A stretch of DNA of 63,998 nucleotides, filler included, from an uncultured Myxococcia bacterium (GTDB lineage Bacteria; CAZTWC01): the NCBI GenBank assembly GCA_964617105.1. It is 7 parts of 7 records of this genome, joined end to end, with 100 filler letters (N's around TTAATTAATTAA, not from the genome) between each part and the next. Parts side by side here need not be neighbours in the genome. Positions count along the whole stretch, not along the records: positions 59,688 to 63,998 come from CAZTWC010000308.1; 6 more parts are not named here. One strand, written 5' to 3'. The first letter of the stretch is position 1. Each line of letters opens with the position of its first letter. The position numbers and the translations under genes are program-made. Below, piece by piece: positions 9,929-63,998 of the stretch. Below the pieces are notes generated by a model. It was not told the DNA's origin, did no database searches, and worked only from the letters and a program-made list of their open reading frames with translations.

Positions 9929-10028
9929 NNNNNNNNNNNNNNNNNNNNNNNNNNNNNNNNNNNNNNNNNNNNTTAATTAATTAANNNNNNNNNNNNNNNN
10001 NNNNNNNNNNNNNNNNNNNNNNNNNNNN
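9929..10028. other. Artificial contig linker (also 19954-20053, 29976-30075, 39994-40093, 49904-50003, 59588-59687)
   Basis: Identical 100-nt N44-TTAATTAATTAA-N44 spacer with stops in all frames; genes are truncated at these points. Confidence 0.98.
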
Positions 10029-12855: not shown

Positions 12856-14314
12856 CCTCGTTAAAATAATCTTTAAAAACCTGGTCGATCTCTGATTTGA
12901 AATCATCTATCATCTCTTGATGTTGGTTTTTAGGCGGGGATGAAACAGATTGCGATGGCTTGGAGATGACATCTTGTGGGGTATCTTGGGGCTGGGGGGT
13001 AAGATAGGCGGATTTTTTTTCCAGGACTCCACGTAAGCCAGCGCCATACGGGAGACCAACCAGNNNNNNNNNNTTCTCTCCCATTCCTTCCTGGTGCTTG
13101 ATCTTTTCTATCAATTCCCATTCGTAGCGTTCGTATTCTATCGAATCCATCTGGTCATCCAGATATTGCATCTCTTCGTTCAGCACCCGTTTTACTCTGG
13201 GAGAAATATTTTTCATAATTCGATTGTTCACCTTTTCTTCCTGGTATTTTAACAGGTAAGAAAGAGCGTGCATATCGGTATTGATCAATATTTTTTGAAT
13301 GGCCCTATTGTCCAGTTTGGCAATATCGGCAAAGGTCTTGAGTTTGGCAATGGTCATAAACTTGGGAACTTTTTTATGGAAATAATCTTTCCCCTTTTTA
13401 CCGGCCCAGGATAAAAAATCATCTTTATTGAACAGAAAAAGGCTGAAAGGTATCTCTCCATCGCCAATCCTGACCAGGATATTTTCCGGTTTTATATCCA
13501 TTATGGAGGAGATGTCATCCAGATCGACAATTTCGTTTTCAGAAATTTCAAATTGCTGGAAATATTCGGCATTTTCCTTTTTAAAAGCCTGGGCTTTTTT
13601 GAAAAAATTCTGCCAATCATACAGCAAAATATATTCTTGGAGTTCGTGAGCAGTTTTAAGAGGGTCTTTCTCGGTTTCCAAAGTAAAGAGATTTATAGAT
13701 TCAAACAGATGGATAAAACGTTCTATCTCCATACTGTTTAGCGATAGTGTATGTTTCAGGGCGGAGATTATCTCTTTGAGATTCACTTTGATAAAATTAT
13801 TATTGGAACTAGAACTATCTTGGCCATTTCTTTGATGTTTTCTGGTAAATTTACCAGGTTTACTTTTGGCAGTGATGTTATCAGGTTTACTTTGGACGTG
13901 GGCTTTGAATACCAATTCCATCACTTTGCAGACGCTGGCAAAAAGGTCGCCGCTGGATACAGCAGAAAAAGATCGGGTGGTTTCATCCAATCGATGCACC
14001 AAAGATAAAACGATGGCTTTTAGCATTGGAGAAGCGCGGTTTAGGTCGTGTATCAACTGGGCTTTCTCCACCATCACCACTTCGGAATATTCCAGAGCCC
14101 GGGCGGTGGCGGTTCTTCCCAGATCAACGATAAGGGACATCTCTCCAAATATACTACCTTTATCCAGGATAGTTAAAACCACTTTCCTGCTCTTCAGCAT
14201 TTTAGATATCTCAACTTTTCCCGACTTGACAATGTAAACAGTCTTGCCGGCGCTGCCCTCTTTGAAGATAACCTGGTCCGCATAAAATTCTTTACTTACA
14301 TAGGAACGATTCAT
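12848..14314 (-). CDS. Cyclic-nucleotide-binding protein with FliG C-terminal domain (extreme C-terminus uncertain, gap 13064-13073)
   Basis: cNMP domain IFKEG...FGEMSL...RTATARA; FliG_C-like FADIAKLDNRAIQKIL...IMKNISPRVKRVLNEEMQYL. Confidence 0.8.
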   Translation of the reverse strand: MNRSYVSKEFYADQVIFKEGSAGKTVYIVKSGKVEISKMLKSRKVVLTILDKGSIFGEMSLIVDLGRTATARALEYSEVVMVEKAQLIHDLNRASPMLKAIVLSLVHRLDETTRSFSAVSSGDLFASVCKVMELVFKAHVQSKPDNITAKSKPGKFTRKHQRNGQDSSSSNNNFIKVNLKEIISALKHTLSLNSMEIERFIHLFESINLFTLETEKDPLKTAHELQEYILLYDWQNFFKKAQAFKKENAEYFQQFEISENEIVDLDDISSIMDIKPENILVRIGDGEIPFSLFLFNKDDFLSWAGKKGKDYFHKKVPKFMTIAKLKTFADIAKLDNRAIQKILINTDMHALSYLLKYQEEKVNNRIMKNISPRVKRVLNEEMQYLDDQMDSIEYERYEWELIEKIKHQEGMGEXXXXLVGLPYGAGLRGVLEKKSAYLTPQPQDTPQDVISKPSQSVSSPPKNQHQEMIDDFKSEIDQVFKDYFNEDD

Positions 14315-19953: not shown

Positions 19954-20053
19954 NNNNNNNNNNNNNNNNNNNNNNNNNNNNNNNNNNNNNNNNNNNNTTA
20001 ATTAATTAANNNNNNNNNNNNNNNNNNNNNNNNNNNNNNNNNNNNNNNNNNNN

Positions 20054-29975: not shown

Positions 29976-30075
29976 NNNNNNNNNNNNNNNNNNNNNNNNN
30001 NNNNNNNNNNNNNNNNNNNTTAATTAATTAANNNNNNNNNNNNNNNNNNNNNNNNNNNNNNNNNNNNNNNNNNNN

Positions 30076-39993: not shown

Positions 39994-40093
39994 NNNNNNN
40001 NNNNNNNNNNNNNNNNNNNNNNNNNNNNNNNNNNNNNTTAATTAATTAANNNNNNNNNNNNNNNNNNNNNNNNNNNNNNNNNNNNNNNNNNNN

Positions 40094-49903: not shown

Positions 49904-50003
49904 NNNNNNNNNNNNNNNNNNNNNNNNNNNNNNNNNNNNNNNNNNNNTTAATTAATTAANNNNNNNNNNNNNNNNNNNNNNNNNNNNNNNNNNNNNNNNN
50001 NNN

Positions 50004-54130: not shown

Positions 54131-55420
54131 ATGAAACCAACAGAAAATATTAAATCCATAATTCAAAACACTTCTTTATTGAAGCGCTTTCTGGAGTATG
54201 TCCAGGTTGACACCCCATCTTCCCATAACAGTGACCAATTTCCATCAACTCCTCAACAAAAAATACTAGGTGAAATATTGGCCTCCCATTTGAAGGAATT
54301 GGGTCTTAAGCAGGTTAACATGGATGAAAATGGATATGTGTATGGATTTTTACCGGGCACCTCTTCTTCAGCCCCAAAAATAGGATTGATCGCTCACATG
54401 GATGTTTCACCAGAAGTTAAGGGGGAGGGAGTAAAACCTCTAATCCACAAAAACTATGACGGTAAGCCCCTTAATCTTCCGGCCGGTATAGAGATCTCTT
54501 CACAGGAGTTTCCGGTTCTAAAAAACTGTTTGGGACATACTATTATCACTTCCGATGGCAGTACCTTGCTGGGAGCTGATGACAAAGCCGGTATAGCAGA
54601 GATTATGACAGTTCTAGAAATTCTAAAAGAATCGGGCGTATCCAATTCTATGTGGTTAGAAGTGCCTGAAAATCGTCCGGATATTTATATCTGCTTTACC
54701 CCGGATGAAGAGATCGGCCGGGGTGTAAACAAAATCAATTTAGAGCAAATAAAAGCAGACTTTGCCTATACCTTAGACGGTGGCGTTCCCTATGAAGTTA
54801 ATAGCGAAACCTTCAATGCCTTTTCAGCTAAAGTATCCTTTACCGGAATCAATACCCATCCCGGCACAGCCAAAGGTATAATGGTTAACGCTCTTCGCCA
54901 TGCAGCCCGTTTTGTAGAGATGATTCCTCAAAAAATGTCGCCAGAGCAGACTGAAGAGAAAGAGCCCTATATCCATCCCGACCGGATAAGTGGAAAGGTG
55001 GAAAAAGCCTCGGTGGAATTTCTCCTGCGAGGATTTGACTTCGCTGATATTGAATATCAAAAAAACCTATTACAGAGCACCGCCAATTACCTGATGGCTC
55101 TGGAACCACGGTTGAAAATAGATGTTAAAATTGAAGAATCCTACCGCAATATGAAAGAGAAATTGGATCAGTACCCTGCTGCTTTCCAGGCCATAATAAA
55201 AACCGGTAAAAAACTTGATGTCCCCCTGGAGATCAAACCTATCAGAGGCGGTACCGATGGAGCCCGTCTGAGTTTTATGGGGCTCCCTACTCCAAATATC
55301 TTTACCGGCGGGTGTAATTTTCACTCTAAACAAGAGTTTATTTCCCTGAATAATATGGCCCTAACCGTTTCCTTTATCCTCCATCTTTTACAAGTGGTGG
55401 CGGAGGAGAATCGGCAATGA
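54131..55420 (+). CDS. pepT: Peptidase T (M20)
   Basis: AHMD, LLGADDKAG, FTPDEEIG, HPG.AK, IRGGTDG. Confidence 0.95.
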   Translation: MKPTENIKSIIQNTSLLKRFLEYVQVDTPSSHNSDQFPSTPQQKILGEILASHLKELGLKQVNMDENGYVYGFLPGTSSSAPKIGLIAHMDVSPEVKGEGVKPLIHKNYDGKPLNLPAGIEISSQEFPVLKNCLGHTIITSDGSTLLGADDKAGIAEIMTVLEILKESGVSNSMWLEVPENRPDIYICFTPDEEIGRGVNKINLEQIKADFAYTLDGGVPYEVNSETFNAFSAKVSFTGINTHPGTAKGIMVNALRHAARFVEMIPQKMSPEQTEEKEPYIHPDRISGKVEKASVEFLLRGFDFADIEYQKNLLQSTANYLMALEPRLKIDVKIEESYRNMKEKLDQYPAAFQAIIKTGKKLDVPLEIKPIRGGTDGARLSFMGLPTPNIFTGGCNFHSKQEFISLNNMALTVSFILHLLQVVAEENRQ

Positions 55421-55890
55421 AAGTAGGTACTATAATGTACAAATCGCTTAAATTCTGTATCTGCCCAACCATATTATCTATTTTCCTTTTAAGTCTGATG
55501 GTTATCTCCTGCGGAGAAGATGCATCATTATCAGATGTTTCCGATACGGATGGCGGTCAGGGAAATGACCAGCAGCAGGATGGCGGTCAGGGAAATGACC
55601 AGCAGCAGGATGGCGGTCTGGAAAATGACCAGCAGCAGGATGGCGGTCTGGAAAATGACCAGCCTACAGATACTGACAGCCATAAAAGCCAACAAAAAAT
55701 TTGCTGTCAGCAGTGCCTGGAAGGATTGAACACTGATCCATCCGGCAAAGGACCAGATGCGATTACTTGCATAAACTACAGGGATAAACTATCTTGGGAC
55801 GGCAATCCCCTTTTTACCGAAGAGTGCCTGCTTTTTTTCAATAAAAACTCTCAGGTAACCGCTGGCCAATGTATGCTGGAATCTCCATGA
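55417..55890 (+). CDS. Lipoprotein with repeat stalk and small Cys-rich domain
   Basis: Lipobox VISC; (DGGQGNDQQQ)-type repeat x4; CCQQC...C...C...C. Confidence 0.7.
   Translation: MKVGTIMYKSLKFCICPTILSIFLLSLMVISCGEDASLSDVSDTDGGQGNDQQQDGGQGNDQQQDGGLENDQQQDGGLENDQPTDTDSHKSQQKICCQQCLEGLNTDPSGKGPDAITCINYRDKLSWDGNPLFTEECLLFFNKNSQVTAGQCMLESP
55548..55663. repeat. 30-bp in-frame tandem repeat, about 4 copies
   Basis: ggatggcggtc(a/t)gg(g/a)aaatgaccagcagca repeated with no spacers. Confidence 0.92.
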
Positions 55891-56029: not shown

Positions 56030-57550
56030 ATGGGGGGCACGGGAATGAGTATTGCCGATAAAGAAAAAAAACTACATATACTCCTACAAGAACTGTCATC
56101 AGAAGATGAGTCAGTTCGCTTCCGGGCGGCAGAGATGCTAGGATGGATGGGAAGTATAGCGGTGCAACCCCTGCTAAAACTACTGGAAGGCCAGGACAGT
56201 GATGTAGGATGGTGGGTGGCATTGGCCCTGACTGAAATTGGTAAAACAGCGGTGGAAGATCTGGTAATGGCTCTGGATAGTGATGACTGGTATATTCAGG
56301 AAACAGTGGCGGAGATATTGGGTAAAATTGGTGACAGCCAGGCCGTTACCCCTCTTATCAAGTGCCTGGATAATAAACAATGGCATTTACGAATGAATGC
56401 CGTGACTGCCCTGGGGGCTATTGGTGATCAAAGGGCACTGGCGCCCCTAACCAGAAAACTGGTGGATGATGACGAAGATGTCAGGGTTGCCACGGCAAAA
56501 TCTCTGGGCCAATTAAACCATATTGCCGCTGAAGGCCCATTGATAAAAACCCTGGAAGATGAGAGTAAAAACGTCCGGGAGGCAGCCATTGAATCTCTGG
56601 GTAAAATCGGCAGTAAACAGGCGTTAGCACCTTTAATGGAAACCCTCAAAAACGATGACTGGCAGGTACAGGATTGTGCGGCCCGGGCGCTCTCCAGCCT
56701 GGGAGAACACGCCGTAACATTACTGGTCAAGTTGCTGGATGACAGCCGTTGGCAAATACGAAAAATGGGAGCCTGGATACTGGGAGAAATCGGTGATCAG
56801 AGAGCGGTTGAGCAACTAGTCTGCCTTTTGGAAGATGAAAATAATGATGTCAGAGATGTCACCGCCGAAGCCCTGGGAAAACTCGGTAGCCCCAGGGCCG
56901 TGGGCCCTTTGATTACTGCCCTGGATGACTGGGATTCTTATGTGCGTTTCAGAGCAGCGGAATCTCTGGGTAAAATTGGTGATGAGAGAGGGGTGGAGCC
57001 TTTGATTAAAGCCATGGATGACATGGATGAAGATGTACGCTCCAAAGCGGTATGGGCACTGGGAGAACTCGGTTTCGGCTCTGCTCTGGATCCAATAATC
57101 GAAGCTCTCGGAGATGAGGACAAATGGGTTAGACAATACGCTGAGGAGGCTCTTTGCAGATTGGGCAATTGCACCCAGGATACCCTGATAAAAATACTGG
57201 CAGATGATAATCAATTTCGGCGCACTTCCGCCATAAATGTGCTGGTGGAGTTGGGGCCATCTATTATTGAAGCGGTAATAGCGTCCCTGGGAAGCACCAA
57301 CCACCTGGTGCGGGAAAGTGGAGAAACAGTGTTGAGCAGCCTGGGAATGTCGGCCATAGAACCTTTGATTGATATCCTGAATGACCATAATAATCTCCGC
57401 TGTATCAGTGCCAGTAATATACTAATAAAAATAGGCCCCCTGGCGATAGAATCCCTGGTGGATGCGCTTAAAACCAAAAATAAAAATATACGGATAAAAG
57501 CCGCAGAAATATTAGAAAAAATCGAACAACAGGATATTTATACACTATGA
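56030..57550 (+). CDS. HEAT/PBS-lyase repeat protein
   Basis: About 15 repeats of VR..AA.ALG.IGD..AV.PLI..L.D. Confidence 0.93.
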   Translation: MGGTGMSIADKEKKLHILLQELSSEDESVRFRAAEMLGWMGSIAVQPLLKLLEGQDSDVGWWVALALTEIGKTAVEDLVMALDSDDWYIQETVAEILGKIGDSQAVTPLIKCLDNKQWHLRMNAVTALGAIGDQRALAPLTRKLVDDDEDVRVATAKSLGQLNHIAAEGPLIKTLEDESKNVREAAIESLGKIGSKQALAPLMETLKNDDWQVQDCAARALSSLGEHAVTLLVKLLDDSRWQIRKMGAWILGEIGDQRAVEQLVCLLEDENNDVRDVTAEALGKLGSPRAVGPLITALDDWDSYVRFRAAESLGKIGDERGVEPLIKAMDDMDEDVRSKAVWALGELGFGSALDPIIEALGDEDKWVRQYAEEALCRLGNCTQDTLIKILADDNQFRRTSAINVLVELGPSIIEAVIASLGSTNHLVRESGETVLSSLGMSAIEPLIDILNDHNNLRCISASNILIKIGPLAIESLVDALKTKNKNIRIKAAEILEKIEQQDIYTL

Positions 57551-59587: not shown

Positions 59588-59687
59588 NNNNNNNNNNNNN
59601 NNNNNNNNNNNNNNNNNNNNNNNNNNNNNNNTTAATTAATTAANNNNNNNNNNNNNNNNNNNNNNNNNNNNNNNNNNNNNNNNNNNN

Positions 59688-60263
59688 CGCAGTGTGATGC
59701 ATGGTATCGGTTCCATGACCTATCACTATGCCGTCAGCGCCTTCCTCGATCTGCCGGGCCGCCTCCTGGGCAGTGGTTATCCACTCCTTTGGCCCCATGT
59801 TCTCGCTGAATATGCCAAACATTTTTTGGGTATTCAAATTGCAAATATCGGCCAATTCTGGCACTGCTCCGTACAATTCTCCCGGCGAAAAGGCCGGGAT
59901 TACCGCGCCAGTCCTGTAGTCCAAACGGCTGGCTATAGTGCCGCCGGTTCCCAGTAAGGTAACATTGGGCTTTTGAGGATCAATTGGAAATTCGGTTTGG
60001 GGAATCTGGTAATCAGCTACTTTTTTGCCCAGCACATCCACCTTTTCAATAGATTTGACTTTTATACCTACATTGTAACCATTGTGCAATTTTAGCACCA
60101 AATGCTGATCATCTGCGGTTTCGGAGCGCGGCAATACTATCCCCTGGAAGACCCCGCCGTTTTTGGTGGTCAAGCGAATATCCGACCAAACAAAGATGCC
60201 CATTTTGACCATAATCTTTTTGGCCAACCCTTTGTAACCTTTAAGATCATCCCCTTTTAGCAT
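59688..60263 (-). CDS. gatD: Glu-tRNA(Gln) amidotransferase subunit D (3' partial)
   Basis: GatD N-domain LVLKLHNGYNVG plus TGGTIASRLDYRTGAV, SENM, HGTDTM; RBS AGGAG. Confidence 0.9.
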
Positions 60264-60315
60264 CTTTTCTCCTGCAATATTTGGTGGTCAAACAAATATC
60301 CGACCAAACCAATCT

Positions 60316-61521
60316 CTAAGCCCCAAATTTCTTGAGTTTAAAAGCATTGGCCAACATCAGGGGGATAGCCTCATAGGCTGGAATAGTCCCCAGGCAACCC
60401 CGCATACATTGGTGTTCGTTAAAAGCCAGGGCCTGGTCATTCAGGCAATATTTAGAGTGAATCATAAAGGGATTTGGATGCCAGGAATGGTTTTTTAACA
60501 CTGCTGGAGTGGAATGATCGCTAGTCACAACTACCACATCGGGATTGAGTGCCAAAATATCCGGCAAAATAGCATCGGTCTCCTCGATTTTCTTCACCTT
60601 GGCGGCAAAATTACCATCTTCTCCATAGGAATCGGTCTTTTTAACGTGGACAAAAAAGAAGTCGTTATTATCCCAATTCTTTCTCATGGTTTCCACCTGG
60701 TCCGATAATTCAGAGCCAGTAGAGAGGATCTCCATCCCCACCAGTTTCGCCAATCCATTGTACATTGGATAGGTGGCTATGGCGGCCGGGGTAAGTTTGA
60801 ATAATTCATGCATGCTGGGAATATTGGGTGATTTGGCCAATCCTCGCATCAGGCACATGTTGGCCGGCTGTTTATCCTGTAAAACGCTTTTTACCTGTTG
60901 GACAAACTGGTTTACGATTCGAGCCGCCTTTTTCGCCCCCTCAACCAAAGGCTTTATCTCCAAAGGCTCCAGCCCAACCTGCTGCGGATCACTCTCACTC
61001 AGCGGACCGGAAAGGCCTTCTCCTGTAAACACCACCACAAAACGATGTTCCATACCCGACTGAATTTTCACCTCCACATCCTCTATTTTGGTGATATTCT
61101 GCCGTAATAATTGGCAGATCTCCAGGTTCATCTCGGTGGGAATGCGGCCGGCTCTACGATCGGTGATCCGCCCCTGGGCGTCCATGCTGGCAAAATTAGC
61201 CCGGGCAGCCAGATCATTATCTCCCAGATCAATACCCAGGCCCAGAGCCTCCAGTACACCGCGGCCAATTTCGTATCCCAAAGGATCATAACCGAACAGG
61301 GAGAGGTGAGCCGGTCCACTACCCGGAGTTATACCAGGGGATATGGGGTTAGTAAGACCACAGGATGATTGGGCCGCCAGATTGTCCAGGTTAGGGGTAT
61401 TGGCGGTTTCCAACTCAGTTTTTCCATCTATTGGCAATCCCCCTACCCCATCCATTACTAAAAGCACTATCTTGGCGTCATTTTTGGTGGACAACTCTTT
61501 CATTACATGATTAGGAATCAT
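60316..61521 (-). CDS. apgM: BPG-independent phosphoglycerate mutase (ApgM type)
   Basis: MDGVG, TPNLD, PGSGPAHLSLFGYDP, DRRAGR, SDHSTP. Confidence 0.93.
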   Translation of the reverse strand: MIPNHVMKELSTKNDAKIVLLVMDGVGGLPIDGKTELETANTPNLDNLAAQSSCGLTNPISPGITPGSGPAHLSLFGYDPLGYEIGRGVLEALGLGIDLGDNDLAARANFASMDAQGRITDRRAGRIPTEMNLEICQLLRQNITKIEDVEVKIQSGMEHRFVVVFTGEGLSGPLSESDPQQVGLEPLEIKPLVEGAKKAARIVNQFVQQVKSVLQDKQPANMCLMRGLAKSPNIPSMHELFKLTPAAIATYPMYNGLAKLVGMEILSTGSELSDQVETMRKNWDNNDFFFVHVKKTDSYGEDGNFAAKVKKIEETDAILPDILALNPDVVVVTSDHSTPAVLKNHSWHPNPFMIHSKYCLNDQALAFNEHQCMRGCLGTIPAYEAIPLMLANAFKLKKFGA

Positions 61522-61604
61522 ATTATCCTCCTTGTTTCAATAATATATCAACTATACTTCAACCATTACTTCAACCAGTCAACCCAGAATTGAAATCCCA
61601 GGAC

Positions 61605-62811
61605 TTATTTTAACACATCAGCGATTTTTTCCAGAGCCAGGTCCATCTCCTCTCTGGTAATTACCAGTGGTGGCGCGAAACGGATCACATTTTCGTGAGT
61701 CTCTTTGCAAAGCAAACCCTTGGCCATCAATTGTTCACAGTATAACCGGGCTCCACCCGCTTCTGGTTTTAATTCCAGGCCTATCAGTAAGCCTTTGCCC
61801 CTCACTTCTTTGGTGTGAGGGCTGTCTATCTGTACCAGTTTATCCATAAAATAGCCGCCCTTTTCAGACGCCTGCCTGGCCATATCTTCTTCCAGCATAA
61901 TCTTGATAGAGGTGCGGGCCACGGCACAGGCCAAGGGATTGCCGCCAAAAGTGCTGCCGTGATCACCCGGCCTAAAAACACTCATAACCTCATCGGAAGA
62001 AACCACCGCCGAGATTGGCAAAATACCGCCGCCCAGAGCCTTGCCTAAGATTAGCACATCGGGCTGGATATTTTCATGCTGAAAACAGAACATTTTGCCG
62101 GTACGGCAAAAACCGGTTTGGATCTCATCAGCCATCAGCAGCACTTTTTCCCGGTCACATATCTCCCTTACCCGGGATAGGTATCCTGACGGAGGCACAA
62201 TAACCCCTCCCTCTCCCTGAATGGGCTCTACCAGAAAAGCCACCGTATTGGTAGAAATGGCATCTTCCAAAGCCTGGCTGTCACCATAGGGAATCACTTT
62301 GAAACCAGGGGTAAAGGGGCCAAATCCCTCCCGATAACTCTCTTCGGTGGAAAAAGTCACGATGGTAATGGTGCGGCCGTGAAAATTGTTGGTGCAAACA
62401 ATGATCTCAGCCATGTCTTTCTGCACTCCCTTTTTCTGATAACCCCACTTGCGGGCAGCCTTGATAGCGGTTTCCACCGCCTCTGCTCCGGTGTTCATAG
62501 GCAACACTTTCTCCATCTCGCACAACTGGGCCAACTCCTCGGAAAAGGGGCCCAACTGATCATTATGAAAAGCCCGGGAGGTGAGGGTCACTTTTTGGGC
62601 CTGAGAAACCATAGCCTCCACTATTTTCGGATGGCAATGACCATGATTGATGGCAGAATAGGAACTCAACATATCCATATATTTTTTTCCCTCTGGGTCA
62701 TAAACCCAAATCCCTTCTGCCCTGGAGATCACAATGGGTAGGGGATGATAGTTGTNNNNNNNNNNGAGCGCCATATTTTTCTGTAATTTCAATCAATTGT
62801 TCTGTGTTCAT
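61605..62811 (-). CDS. rocD: Ornithine--oxo-acid aminotransferase
   Basis: [22 protein letters not shown] when the 10-N gap is closed; [39 protein letters not shown]. Confidence 0.93.
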
Positions 62812-62939
62812 AGTTTGGTTCTCCTGTTTGGTGAAACCATTCAAATTTCTAGATAATAAAAAATTATTAGCAACTAGTCCCTTATTTGTAAAGGAAAATA
62901 TGACAGGGGGTCTATATTAGGGTCGGGCAACGCATTCAA

Positions 62940-63830
62940 TCAGGAGTGTGAATGTGGGCTGTACTTTATTAGCAGCGCTGAAGAGAGAAGCACCATAACG
63001 CCACCTGTCAGGGTAGTGTGGGTGGGTGTTTCTCCTAGCACCAGCACTGATAATAAAACTATCCAGACAGTAATTAAGAGAGAAATAATACTCCCTTTGC
63101 TGGCTGGTATATATTTATATGCTAGAGAGATGTGGATTTGAGCGCTGGCGCTGGAGATCCCGGTTATCAGCAGGATTAAAATCGAAAACAGAGTAAAATA
63201 ATCGGGGAAAGTGAATTGAAAAATATCTCCTGCCACCTCTTCAGCAGAGAATATCATGCTGAACAACACCATGGACAGCACCATGCTAAAAGGAGAATCG
63301 GTTTGATTCAATTTGCGCAACAAAACGTGAACCGAGCCCACTAAAAAACCGGTCACCAGCGCCAGAATATAACCCAGGTTAAATTGATAAAAGGCAGGCC
63401 GGGTAATAAGCAAAATTCCCACCATGGCTACCAGCAGTGACAGGGCTTGGAGCCGGGTGAACTTCTCCTTTAAATAGATTACCGCTATAATGTTGGTCCA
63501 AATCGGACCAGTAGAGATAAGCATAGAAGCTTCAGAAGCGGTTATGTAGTAGAGAGCCCTAAAATAACAGATTAAACTAACTGCTCCCAGCACTCCCCGC
63601 AATATCAGCAGCCAGCCTTTATTAAAAGTAAACCGCTGGCCTCTCAACCCCATGTAAACTAACATAACCATCAGGCAAACAAAACTACGCCAGAAAACCA
63701 AAGGAAAGGTGGGCACCAGGCCACTTCCCATTTTGGCGGAAACTCCCATTATTGCAAAGCCAAAGGTGGCCGCCACCATCAATAGATAGCCGTAATAAAG
63801 CCGGGCATCAGATTTCTTGTTTTCAGCCAT
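62940..63830 (-). CDS. EamA/DMT family transporter
   Basis: Ten TM helices in two repeats; LILRG, YLKEK, LGE motifs. Confidence 0.9.
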   Translation of the reverse strand: MAENKKSDARLYYGYLLMVAATFGFAIMGVSAKMGSGLVPTFPLVFWRSFVCLMVMLVYMGLRGQRFTFNKGWLLILRGVLGAVSLICYFRALYYITASEASMLISTGPIWTNIIAVIYLKEKFTRLQALSLLVAMVGILLITRPAFYQFNLGYILALVTGFLVGSVHVLLRKLNQTDSPFSMVLSMVLFSMIFSAEEVAGDIFQFTFPDYFTLFSILILLITGISSASAQIHISLAYKYIPASKGSIISLLITVWIVLLSVLVLGETPTHTTLTGGVMVLLSSALLIKYSPHSHS

Positions 63831-63998
63831 CAATCTTTGGGCAAATAGGCGGCGATTACCTCATCCATCAGTTTTTCAGCAAAATCTATGGAAAAAAGCA
63901 CCTTGTCAATCTCCAGGTTCTGCAAAGAATCGGTGGGTTGGTGATAGTGACGGGGGACATTCAGTTCTCTATCGATACAGCATAAACATAGGCCTTCA
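63830..63998 (-). CDS. C-terminus of probable M28 peptidase (partial)
   Basis: Read manually: ...VPRHYHQPTDSLQNLEIDKV...PKD*; YHxxxD motif. Confidence 0.55.
   Translation of the reverse strand, partial: EGLCLCCIDRELNVPRHYHQPTDSLQNLEIDKVLFSIDFAEKLMDEVIAAYLPKD

What the first reader, a model, noticed from the sequence alone, without database searches (positions are those of the whole stretch)
59688..60263. Archaeal-type GatD in a bacterial gene run
Seen: a ~90 aa N-terminal domain with LVLKLHNGYNVG before the asparaginase-like core TGGTIASRLDYRTGAV. Plain type I asparaginases lack this domain. The gene has an AGGAG RBS and follows rocD and apgM on the same strand. Known: GatDE is regarded as the archaeal Glu-tRNA(Gln) amidotransferase, while bacteria use GatCAB or GlnRS. 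Inference: interdomain transfer of a translation-related enzyme; gatE should lie nearby, beyond the contig break.
Basis: partly seen in the sequence, partly recalled or inferred. Interest (0 to 1): 0.72.

Follow-up and report, generated by a model that had tools for sequence, protein, structure and literature searches.

The report
Bacterial GatD gene fragment, Asgard-related
This is the first half of a real gatD gene, cut off by a contig end, in an uncultured marine bacterium; it belongs to a large bacterial branch of the "archaea-only" GatDE enzyme that makes glutamine on its tRNA, and the bacterium also carries both standard bacterial routes to the same product.

Summary
Observation confirmed. 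Window 59688-60263 (-) encodes 192 residues of GatD (GatD_N domain plus the asparaginase N-domain with the TGGT and HGTDT motifs) behind an AGGAG site. The gene is cut by the end of a 4.3-kb contig (C308). The window is a chain of MAG contigs joined by N linkers.

The genome is bacterial: bacterial 16S, GluRS, GlnRS, GatA and GatB. It is the only species of its GTDB phylum. A full gatE exists, but mid-contig on C48, not next to gatD.

The gene is not a recent import. It sits in a monophyletic clade (100/100 support) found in 40 of 400 sampled bacterial species. GatE was found in 40 of those 40, GlnRS in 31, GatB in 19 and AsnRS in 38.

That clade nests within Asgard-archaeal GatD (100/100). 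Holding the archaeal sequences together is rejected (p-AU 0.005). Some Thermoplasmatota carry the clade as a second GatDE beside their canonical one.

Both tRNA-Gln genes here have the bacterial U1-A72 pair, and clade GatE lacks the canonical tail motif.

Reviews from 2021-22 still call GatDE archaea-only, while databases already annotate these bacterial genes. Earlier reports of this scan reached the same reading on other genomes.

Best reading: a working Glu-tRNA(Gln) amidotransferase that runs beside GlnRS and GatCAB. Its substrate is untested.

The parts
59688..60263 (-). 5' part of gatD (192 codons): GatD_N domain plus the asparaginase N-domain with the TGGT and HGTDT catalytic motifs. 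Truncated by the end of contig C308.
60269..60273 (-). Shine-Dalgarno-like AGGAG, 5 nt upstream of the gatD ATG (60261-60263)
   Evidence: read directly
59588..59687 (.). Artificial contig linker (N44-TTAATTAATTAA-N44) between contigs C132 and C308. It is not biological sequence, and it is the reason the gene looks cut.
60316..61521 (-). apgM (cofactor-independent phosphoglycerate mutase), the upstream neighbour. It serves as the marker that the contig is bacterial and is not part of the amidotransferase.
61605..62792 (-). rocD (ornithine aminotransferase) with a 10-N scaffold gap at 62756-62765. Neighbour only.

Best explanation
The fragment is the N-terminal 192 residues of the glutaminase/asparaginase subunit GatD of a heterodimeric tRNA-dependent amidotransferase, GatDE. 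Its partner GatE (647 aa, full length) is encoded elsewhere in the same bacterial genome.

By homology to the solved archaeal enzymes, the mechanism would be as follows. GatD releases ammonia from Gln or Asn. GatE phosphorylates the side-chain carboxyl of Glu on Glu-tRNA(Gln) and amidates it to Gln-tRNA(Gln).

The pair belongs to a distinct, mostly bacterial clade that branches within Asgard-archaeal GatDE. It was therefore acquired from archaea long ago and has since been inherited and exchanged among bacteria. A secondary transfer reached some Thermoplasmatota.

In this genome it works, if it works, beside GlnRS and GatCAB and on tRNA(Gln) with the bacterial U1-A72 pair.

Shown: the identity, the partner, the clade, its origin and its co-occurrence pattern. 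Inferred: the activity, the substrate, and that the gene is intact in the organism.
For: Identity:
- NCBIfam GatD equivalogs match at E 1e-53 and Pfam finds GatD_N plus Asparaginase N.
- The best solved relatives are GatD of M. thermautotrophicus 2D6F (E 1.2e-47) and P. abyssi 1ZQ1.
- TGGT and HGTDT are invariant in an alignment with 12 full-length homologues.

Partner:
- gatE at C48 scores 504.9 bits against a cut-off of 319.55.
- It aligns end to end with GatE chains 1ZQ1_C and 2D6F_C at E 5.6e-102 and 3.3e-98.

Host is bacterial:
- The 16S fragment matches the bacterial model at 1059 bits.
- There is a gltX-glnS pair and gatA-gatB.

The clade:
- 40 of 400 sampled bacterial genomes have GatD over the cut-off, three of them single-contig genomes.
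- At least 577 species loci were found in GTDB. Of the 80 best, 74 carry bacterial labels.
- GatE was found in 40 of the 40 GatD-positive genomes.
- gatE lies within 3 kb of gatD in 68 of 80 named loci.

Trees:
- Clade support is 100/100.
- The clade plus 9 Asgard sequences also has 100/100.
- The clade is sister to the Loki/Hod group at 97/92 (same topology).
- Holding the 31 archaeal rows together is rejected, with a log-likelihood difference of 63.8 and p-AU 0.005.

Same genome for both subunits: own gatD and own gatE both sit next to those of G118 and G045, which also have the two genes on different contigs.

The truncation is an assembly break. Public-run contigs at depth 3-5 stop at 59688, where a 33-kb contig of depth 18 shares 35 nt that encode HGTDTMHH.
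Against: Nothing shows activity.

The enzyme looks dispensable for charging. This genome has GlnRS (760 bits), GatA, GatB and AsnRS. Of the 40 GatD-positive bacteria, 38 have GlnRS and/or GatB.

Only one GluRS gene is present, and whether it mischarges tRNA(Gln) is unknown.

Both tRNA(Gln) genes have U1-A72. The archaeal enzyme is reported to read A1-U72 (PMC9499178, passages).

Five of five checked Thermoplasmatota with two GatD copies keep a canonical GatDE beside the clade copy. This argues that the two are not simply interchangeable.

The C-terminal 270 or so residues of this GatD, including the catalytic Lys region, are not in the assembly.
Confidence: 0.6

Rival explanations
1. The bacterial/Asgard-type GatDE is a functionally diverged paralogue and not a housekeeping Glu-tRNA(Gln) amidotransferase. 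Possible roles are an Asp-tRNA(Asn) or dual-specificity enzyme, a tRNA-dependent route to amide amino acids used only under some conditions, or a clean-up enzyme for mischarged Glu-tRNA(Gln).
For: It co-occurs with GlnRS and/or GatB in 38 of 40 genomes and with AsnRS in 38 of 40. It coexists with a canonical GatDE in 5 of 5 checked Thermoplasmatota that hold two GatD copies. The clade has lost the GatE tail motif implicated in Gln/Asn discrimination. It has a long, fully supported stem branch. It is retained in all sampled members of several families, for example f5 3/3, f17 2/2 and f42 3/3, which implies selection despite apparent redundancy.
Against: Asgard members of the same larger branch were the only GatD/GatE found in 5 of 5 archaeal genomes checked for GatE (four Asgard and one Hadarchaeota), so the ancestral job is the canonical one. 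The cradle loop KV[RK]RG of GatE is kept. The GatD catalytic motifs are invariant. No conserved neighbour other than gatE points to another pathway, and the tRNA genes nearby are 1 tRNA-Gln, 1 tRNA-Asn and 1 tmRNA in 60 loci.
Confidence: 0.25
2. Contig C308 does not belong to this bacterium. It would be a mis-binned piece of another organism, for example a Thermoplasmatota archaeon that carries the same clade.
For: The contig is short (4311 bp). Its GC is 0.468 against a bin median of 0.435, and its tetranucleotide correlation is at the 18.5th percentile of 108 peers. The most identical GatD is an archaeal second copy, L156, at 68%. Bin contamination is estimated at 3.35%. Depth in public runs is low.
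Against: The values are inside the bin's range. All organism-named apgM homologues are bacterial: Elusimicrobia, Atribacterota, Deltaproteobacteria and 'bacterium'. gatE lies on an 18-kb contig of the same bin and has the same nearest relatives as gatD. Even if the contig were mis-binned, it would still be a bacterial-type locus.
Confidence: 0.08
3. It is a plain type I asparaginase (AnsA) or a decayed gene remnant.
For: The asparaginase core alone matches TIGR00519 at E 1.2e-29. The gene is incomplete in the assembly.
Against: The GatD_N domain is present. GatD models score 80 bits higher than asparaginase models. The fragment falls inside the GatD clade, far from two AnsA outgroups. The frame is open right up to the contig end. 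The break coincides with a 35-nt stretch shared with another contig.
Confidence: 0.03

Closest known systems
Archaeal GatDE, Glu-tRNA(Gln) amidotransferase (M. thermautotrophicus PDB 2D6F; P. abyssi PDB 1ZQ1)
   Same: The GatD architecture is the same over the part present: GatD_N, asparaginase N-domain, TGGT and HGTDT. GatE is full length with the cradle, insertion, helical and YqeY-like tail regions aligned end to end, and its basic cradle loop is kept.
   Different: The host is a bacterium that has GlnRS, GatCAB and AsnRS. tRNA(Gln) has U1-A72. The GatE tail lacks GXXAXGX. Clade GatD is about 461 aa against about 420-447 aa, with a conserved C-terminal extension. gatD and gatE are unlinked here.
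Asgard-archaeal GatD (Promethearchaeia/Lokiarchaeia, Hodarchaeota, Jordarchaeales, Odinarchaeia)
   Same: These are the nearest archaeal relatives. The clade HMM scores them 587-647 bits against 341-534 for the other archaea. They form one 100/100 clade with the bacterial group.
   Different: They are separated from the bacterial clade by a stem of about 0.56-0.58 substitutions per site. For GatE the relationship to Asgard sequences is unresolved.
Bacterial GatCAB
   Same: It carries out the same overall reaction. GatB is homologous to GatE (C51 cross-hits). In the literature it recognises U1-A72 tRNAs (PMC2811023).
   Different: It uses a different glutaminase subunit, the amidase GatA, against the asparaginase-like GatD. 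GatE here has the short basic loop and not the GatB 3-10 turn. Both systems are present in this genome.
Type I L-asparaginase (AnsA)
   Same: It shares the catalytic fold and motifs of the core.
   Different: It has no GatD_N domain and no GatE partner, and it lies on a distant branch in the trees.

Membership tests
GatD (NCBIfam NF003217 / TIGR02153) | N-terminal GatD_N domain ahead of the asparaginase core | tested here: met
   PF18195 at residues 33-78, E 3.2e-16, 58.9 bits against a cut-off of 25.7
GatD (NCBIfam NF003217 / TIGR02153) | Asparaginase N-domain with the catalytic Thr motifs (TGGT, HGTDT) | tested here: met
   PF00710 at residues 100-192. The motifs are seen and are invariant.
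GatD (NCBIfam NF003217 / TIGR02153) | Whole-protein score over the curated equivalog cut-off | tested here: inconclusive
   182.5 and 180.9 bits against cut-offs of 310 and 324. Only model positions 1-156 of 405 exist in the assembly. Full-length clade members score 330-524 bits, all over the cut-off.
GatD (NCBIfam NF003217 / TIGR02153) | Asparaginase C-terminal domain and the remaining catalytic residues | not testable with these tools
   This part of the gene is absent from the assembly. Public-run contigs stop at the same base.
GatD (NCBIfam NF003217 / TIGR02153) | Groups with GatD and not with AnsA in a tree | tested here: met
   The fragment is inside the 100*-supported clade of 38 rows, with the AnsA outgroups on a stem of 2.3.
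GatDE amidotransferase system | A GatE partner encoded in the same genome | tested here: met
   C48:12038-13981, 504.9 bits against a cut-off of 319.55. Pfam finds GatB_N plus GatB_Yqey. It is not adjacent to gatD.
GatDE amidotransferase system | tRNA(Gln) with the A1-U72 pair read by the archaeal enzyme (per PMC9499178, passages) | tested here: not met
   tRNA-Gln(CUG) on C65 and tRNA-Gln(UUG) on C123 both have U1-A72.
GatDE amidotransferase system | GXXAXGX motif in the GatE tail (per PMC2811023, passages) | tested here: not met
   Canonical Thermoplasmatota GatE have G.GA.GPLMG or a close variant. Own GatE and the 28 clade rows displayed of the alignment's 57 clade II rows have no such motif.
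GatDE amidotransferase system | It is the only route to Gln-tRNA(Gln), with no GlnRS, as in archaea | tested here: not met
   GlnRS at 760 bits on C17, and GatA and GatB on C51.
GatDE amidotransferase system | Transamidation of Glu-tRNA(Gln) | not testable with these tools
   This needs an enzyme assay.

The most novel reading that the evidence does not exclude
The bacterial/Asgard-type GatDE is a separate functional class of tRNA-dependent amidotransferase. It was acquired once from an Asgard-like archaeon and is kept by roughly a tenth of sampled bacterial species in spite of GlnRS and/or GatCAB. Some Thermoplasmatota keep it in spite of a canonical GatDE. On this reading it is kept because it does something the standard routes do not, such as acting on a different tRNA or amino-acid substrate or working under a different condition. 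It would then read its tRNA in a new way, since it lacks the tail motif and is indifferent to A1-U72 versus U1-A72.
Probability: 0.25. Interest if true: 0.8.

Novelty: new variant of a known kind. Interest (0 to 1): 0.5.

Why it matters
Reviews up to 2022 treat GatDE as an archaeal signature protein found only in archaea (PMC8762117, PMC9499178 and PMC8007984, passages read; PMC2811023 abstract). Arguments about how glutamine entered the genetic code, and about why archaea never took up GlnRS, lean on that exclusivity.

The data here show a coherent bacterial GatDE clade of Asgard affinity in about 10% of 400 sampled bacterial species. It is nearly always redundant on paper with GlnRS or GatCAB, and it faces tRNAs with the opposite first base pair.

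That opens several bench-testable questions. How does GatE select its tRNA? Are the GluRS enzymes of these bacteria non-discriminating? Why are three routes to one aminoacyl-tRNA maintained?

This particular window adds only a truncated copy. Its value is as one more instance, from a lineage that is the only species of its phylum.

Tried and rejected
- Plain asparaginase: rejected.
- gatE beyond the break: rejected, because gatE is mid-contig on C48.
- The missing gatD half elsewhere in the assembly: none found.
- Close relatives of apgM in genome contigs by exact peptide patterns: none found. The question was answered instead.
- Conserved neighbours of gatD other than gatE: no other cluster is present in more than 10 of 80 loci.
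- The first ORF-based adjacency count lost ORFs on high-GC loci. It was replaced by tblastn.
- tRNA linkage: 1 tRNA-Gln, 1 tRNA-Asn and 1 tmRNA in 60 of the 80 loci scanned. The remaining 20 were not scanned.
- The hypothesis that GatDE supplies a missing AsnRS: not supported, since AsnRS is present in 38 of 40 genomes.
- AU test on the 81-row set: not finished after three runs. It was replaced by the 53-row set.
- Sheppard and Soll 2008 (PMC2366055): not held, so its content is known here only through the reviews that cite it.
- Literature searches for bacterial GatDE listed no paper on it. The searched library is open-access papers and bioRxiv only.
- Public-run contigs give no usable coverage comparison.
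- Base rates of GlnRS and GatB in the 360 GatD-negative genomes were not measured, so no enrichment claim is made.

Full report
**What the window is.** The 63,998-base window is not one molecule. It chains contigs of a 4.07-Mb, 489-contig metagenome-assembled genome (N50 12 kb; completeness 96.5%, contamination 3.35%). The contigs are joined by N44-TTAATTAATTAA-N44 linkers. The finding lies at the very start of contig C308, which is window 59688-63998 and 4311 bp long. C308 carries, all on the minus strand, an EamA transporter, rocD, apgM and then the gene in question.

The ORF runs from 60263 down to 59688 and gives 192 residues with no stop up to the contig end.
- Pfam finds GatD_N at residues 33-78 and the asparaginase N-terminal domain at 100-192.
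- NCBIfam's two GatD equivalogs match at E 1e-53 and 3.2e-53 over model positions 1-156 of 405.
- Asparaginase models match the core only, and about 80 bits lower.
- The best solved relatives are the GatD chains of 2D6F and 1ZQ1.
- AGGAG lies 5 nt before the ATG.

The equivalog cut-offs are not reached, but only because 60% of the protein is missing. No other piece of GatD exists in the assembly.

**Why the gene is cut.** Public-run contigs from marine and seawater metagenomes hold this DNA at word depth 3-5, and they stop at the same base. There, a 33-kb contig of depth 18 shares 35 nt with one difference. These are the codons of the invariant HGTDTMHH motif. The truncation is therefore most simply an assembly break at a conserved stretch shared with a more abundant relative. 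That reading is an inference.

**The host is a bacterium.**
- A 1.1-kb 16S fragment on C72 matches the bacterial SSU model at 1059 bits.
- The genome has one bacterial GluRS directly upstream of GlnRS (760 bits) on C17.
- It has gatA and gatB on C51, and AsnRS on C54.
- It is the only species held for its GTDB phylum.

C308 is not a compositional outlier, sitting at the 18.5th percentile of 108 contigs of similar length. Every organism-named homologue of its apgM is bacterial.

**gatE exists but is not nearby.** A full-length gatE (647 aa; 504.9 bits against a cut-off of 319.55) lies at C48:12038-13981. It is flanked by unrelated genes for 12 kb upstream and 4.3 kb downstream. It aligns end to end with the GatE chains of 1ZQ1 and 2D6F.

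**The gene belongs to a large bacterial clade.**
- A protein search gave at least 8000 hits. The best 120 are about 461-aa GatD at 63-71% identity. Of the 13 carrying an organism name, 10 are bacterial and 3 are Thermoplasmatota.
- In 400 sampled bacterial genomes, all related to this one only at domain level, 40 have GatD over the curated cut-off. That is 39 of 365 high-quality genomes and 36 of 348 genera, and it includes three single-contig genomes.
Of the best 80, 74 carry bacterial labels, among them Ignavibacteriota, Bacteroidota, Aminicenantes, WOR-3, Fermentibacterota, Calditrichota, Caldisericota, Zixibacteria, Krumholzibacteriota and Acidobacteriota. Six carry archaeal labels.
- An HMM of the clade separates it cleanly: clade members score 789-944 bits, canonical archaeal GatD 283-464, and the window fragment 337.6 over 191 positions.
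- Of 33 bacterial genomes whose GatD I scored, 31 are in the clade. Two (G015, G184) form another bacterial lineage, and G336 joins them by its GatE. Seven of the 40 were not scored because no locus was fetched.

**The partner and the gene order.**
- GatE is present in 40 of the 40 GatD-positive bacteria. It is over the cut-off in 39, and the remaining one is cut by a contig end.
- By my reading of the coordinates, the two genes share a contig and lie within about 2 kb in 31 of 40. They are on different contigs in 9.
- In the 80 named loci, tblastn finds gatE within the 3-kb flanks in 68. It is directly upstream on the same strand in 51, upstream but further off in 9, downstream in 3, and divergent in 5. 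All five divergent cases are archaeal-labelled.
- It finds none in 12 loci, of which 7 have full flanks.
- The unlinked state of this genome is thus a minority state. It is shared with G118 and G045, which are also the nearest neighbours of both its GatD and its GatE in the trees. That agreement supports the view that the two unlinked genes are a cognate pair of one genome.

**Origin.** I built four trees.
1. One search used 94 rows chosen from 146 GatD-like ORFs, with the archaeal rows taken only from relatives of one Thermoplasmatota genome. The clade is separate from canonical archaeal GatD, with SH-aLRT 100 and a stem of 0.86.
2. I then fetched 80 named canonical archaeal GatD. Asgard sequences score highest against the clade HMM, at 587-647 bits. 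Hadarchaeota score 494-534 and all others 341-512.
3. One search used 81 rows under LG+C20 PMSF, with 39 of the 79 usable archaeal rows. The clade of 38 rows, including the window fragment, has support 100. Together with 9 Asgard rows it has 100. It is sister to the Promethearchaeia/Hodarchaeota group at 93.
4. Searches used 53 rows in a careful search. The window fragment and two long-branch rows were left out, and the clade was thinned to 18 rows. Supports are 100/100, 100/100 and 97/92 (ultrafast bootstrap / SH-aLRT).

Holding the 31 archaeal rows together costs 63.8 log-likelihood units and is rejected by the AU test at p 0.005. Two caveats apply: I named the group after seeing the tree, and the other side of the branch lumps the clade, the second bacterial lineage and the outgroup.

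For GatE, the clade of 30 rows including this genome's GatE is supported at 100. It lies outside a 98-supported group of canonical Thermoplasmatota, Hadarchaeota and the second bacterial lineage. Its relation to the three Asgard GatE sequences is unresolved.

I read this as one old transfer of an Asgard-type gatDE into bacteria, followed by spread among bacteria, plus a second, independent bacterial lineage. The direction is an inference. It rests on the clade being nested among archaeal lineages in which GatDE is the standard enzyme.

**A second copy in archaea.** Among 61 archaeal genomes around one Thermoplasmatota genome that has a true archaeal 16S, 54 have GatD over the cut-off and six have two copies. 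The five I checked also have two GatE: one canonical (681-746 bits) and one of the clade (420-565 bits). In the GatD trees these archaeal copies nest inside bacterial diversity. This suggests a return transfer into archaea.

**Function.** By homology, GatD would supply ammonia and GatE would activate and amidate Glu on tRNA(Gln).

Points in favour of a working enzyme:
- The catalytic motifs present in the fragment are invariant in the clade.
- GatE is full length and keeps the basic cradle loop KV[RK]RG.
- The genes are retained in every sampled member of several families.

Points that make the canonical job uncertain:
- Among the 40 bacteria, 31 have GlnRS, 19 have GatB and 38 have AsnRS.
- The cross-tabulation is GlnRS only 19, both 12, GatB only 7 and neither 2. 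The two with neither are fragmented genomes whose genus or family mates have GlnRS.
- This genome has all of them.
- Its two tRNA(Gln) genes have U1-A72, whereas the archaeal enzyme is described as reading A1-U72 and the D-loop (PMC9499178, passages).
- Canonical GatE tails carry G.GA.GPLMG. [quoted passage not shown] Own GatE, the 28 clade rows I displayed and the 3 rows of the second bacterial lineage lack it.

No conserved neighbour other than gatE was found. tRNA genes are rarely adjacent.

I therefore put the canonical activity at about 0.6 and a diverged role at about 0.25.

**Comparison with what is known.** Three reviews and one research paper, read as passages or abstract, state that GatDE occurs only in archaea. 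Six searches of the open-access and bioRxiv library listed no paper on bacterial GatDE. Subscription journals are not covered. Databases, however, already name these bacterial proteins GatD.

Earlier reports of this scan on other genomes reached the same reading, including 'a large bacterial and Asgard-archaeal branch'. I looked these up after my own reading of a widespread bacterial clade was formed (stated). The Asgard placement came from my own trees.

**Verdict.** This copy is an ordinary, truncated member of an under-described bacterial variant of GatDE. It is notable mainly for sitting beside both GlnRS and GatCAB in a lineage that is the only species of its phylum.

Noticed in passing
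window 60153-60194 and 60271-60312: A 42-nt direct repeat at 83% identity. One copy lies inside gatD (roughly codons 24-37). The other lies in the 52-nt spacer between the apgM stop and the gatD start, overlapping the AGGAG site. Its origin and any role are unknown.
   Followed up: partly
window 9929-10028, 19954-20053, 29976-30075, 39994-40093, 49904-50003, 59588-59687: N44-TTAATTAATTAA-N44 linkers join separate contigs (C126-C130, C132, C308). Gene order across them is not biological. Shorter N runs at 13064, 25709, 50235 and 62756 are scaffold gaps. The 10-N gap in rocD is not a multiple of three.
   Followed up: yes
L150/L108 and L182 (G403); L062, L139, L181, L183 (G401); also G414, G426, G437: These Thermoplasmatota genomes carry two complete GatDE sets: a canonical one and one of the bacterial-type clade. 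In the bacterial-type set gatE and gatD are divergently oriented.
   Followed up: partly
L082:749-822 (-): A tRNA-Gln(CUG) lies beside the clade-type gatE of a Thermoplasmata MAG. By eye its acceptor stem reads best as A1-U72. If the clade enzyme acts on tRNA(Gln), it would face A1-U72 in archaea and U1-A72 in bacteria.
   Followed up: partly
L009/L166 (G015), L050/L169 (G184), L170 (G336): This is a second, separate bacterial GatDE lineage with the order gatD then gatE. It is on a long branch and is not part of the main clade, so bacteria probably acquired GatDE independently a second time.
   Followed up: partly
L102 (Aminicenantes MAG); also long open frames in L068, L087, L098: In L102, gatE and gatD hits fall in one stop-free frame, which may be a GatE-GatD fusion. 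In the other three loci the long frame upstream of gatD was not resolved.
   Followed up: no
window 59689-59723: A 33-kb contig of depth 18 in the same public runs shares these 35 nt with one difference. So another, more abundant organism with a gatD-like gene lives in the same samples.
   Followed up: no
window 55417-55890 and 56030-57550: The first is a small predicted secreted protein with DGGQGNDQQQ-type repeats and a Cys-rich tail. It is followed by a 506-aa protein made of HEAT/PBS-lyase-like repeats. These readings come from the ORF translations only.
   Followed up: no
G000 C292:3140-4105 and the tRNA set: A 341-aa frame matches only the catalytic core of the AsnRS model, so it may be AsnA or an AsnRS-like paralogue. 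ARAGORN found 36 tRNA genes including tRNA-SeC but no tRNA-Asn or tRNA-Asp in the assembly.
   Followed up: no
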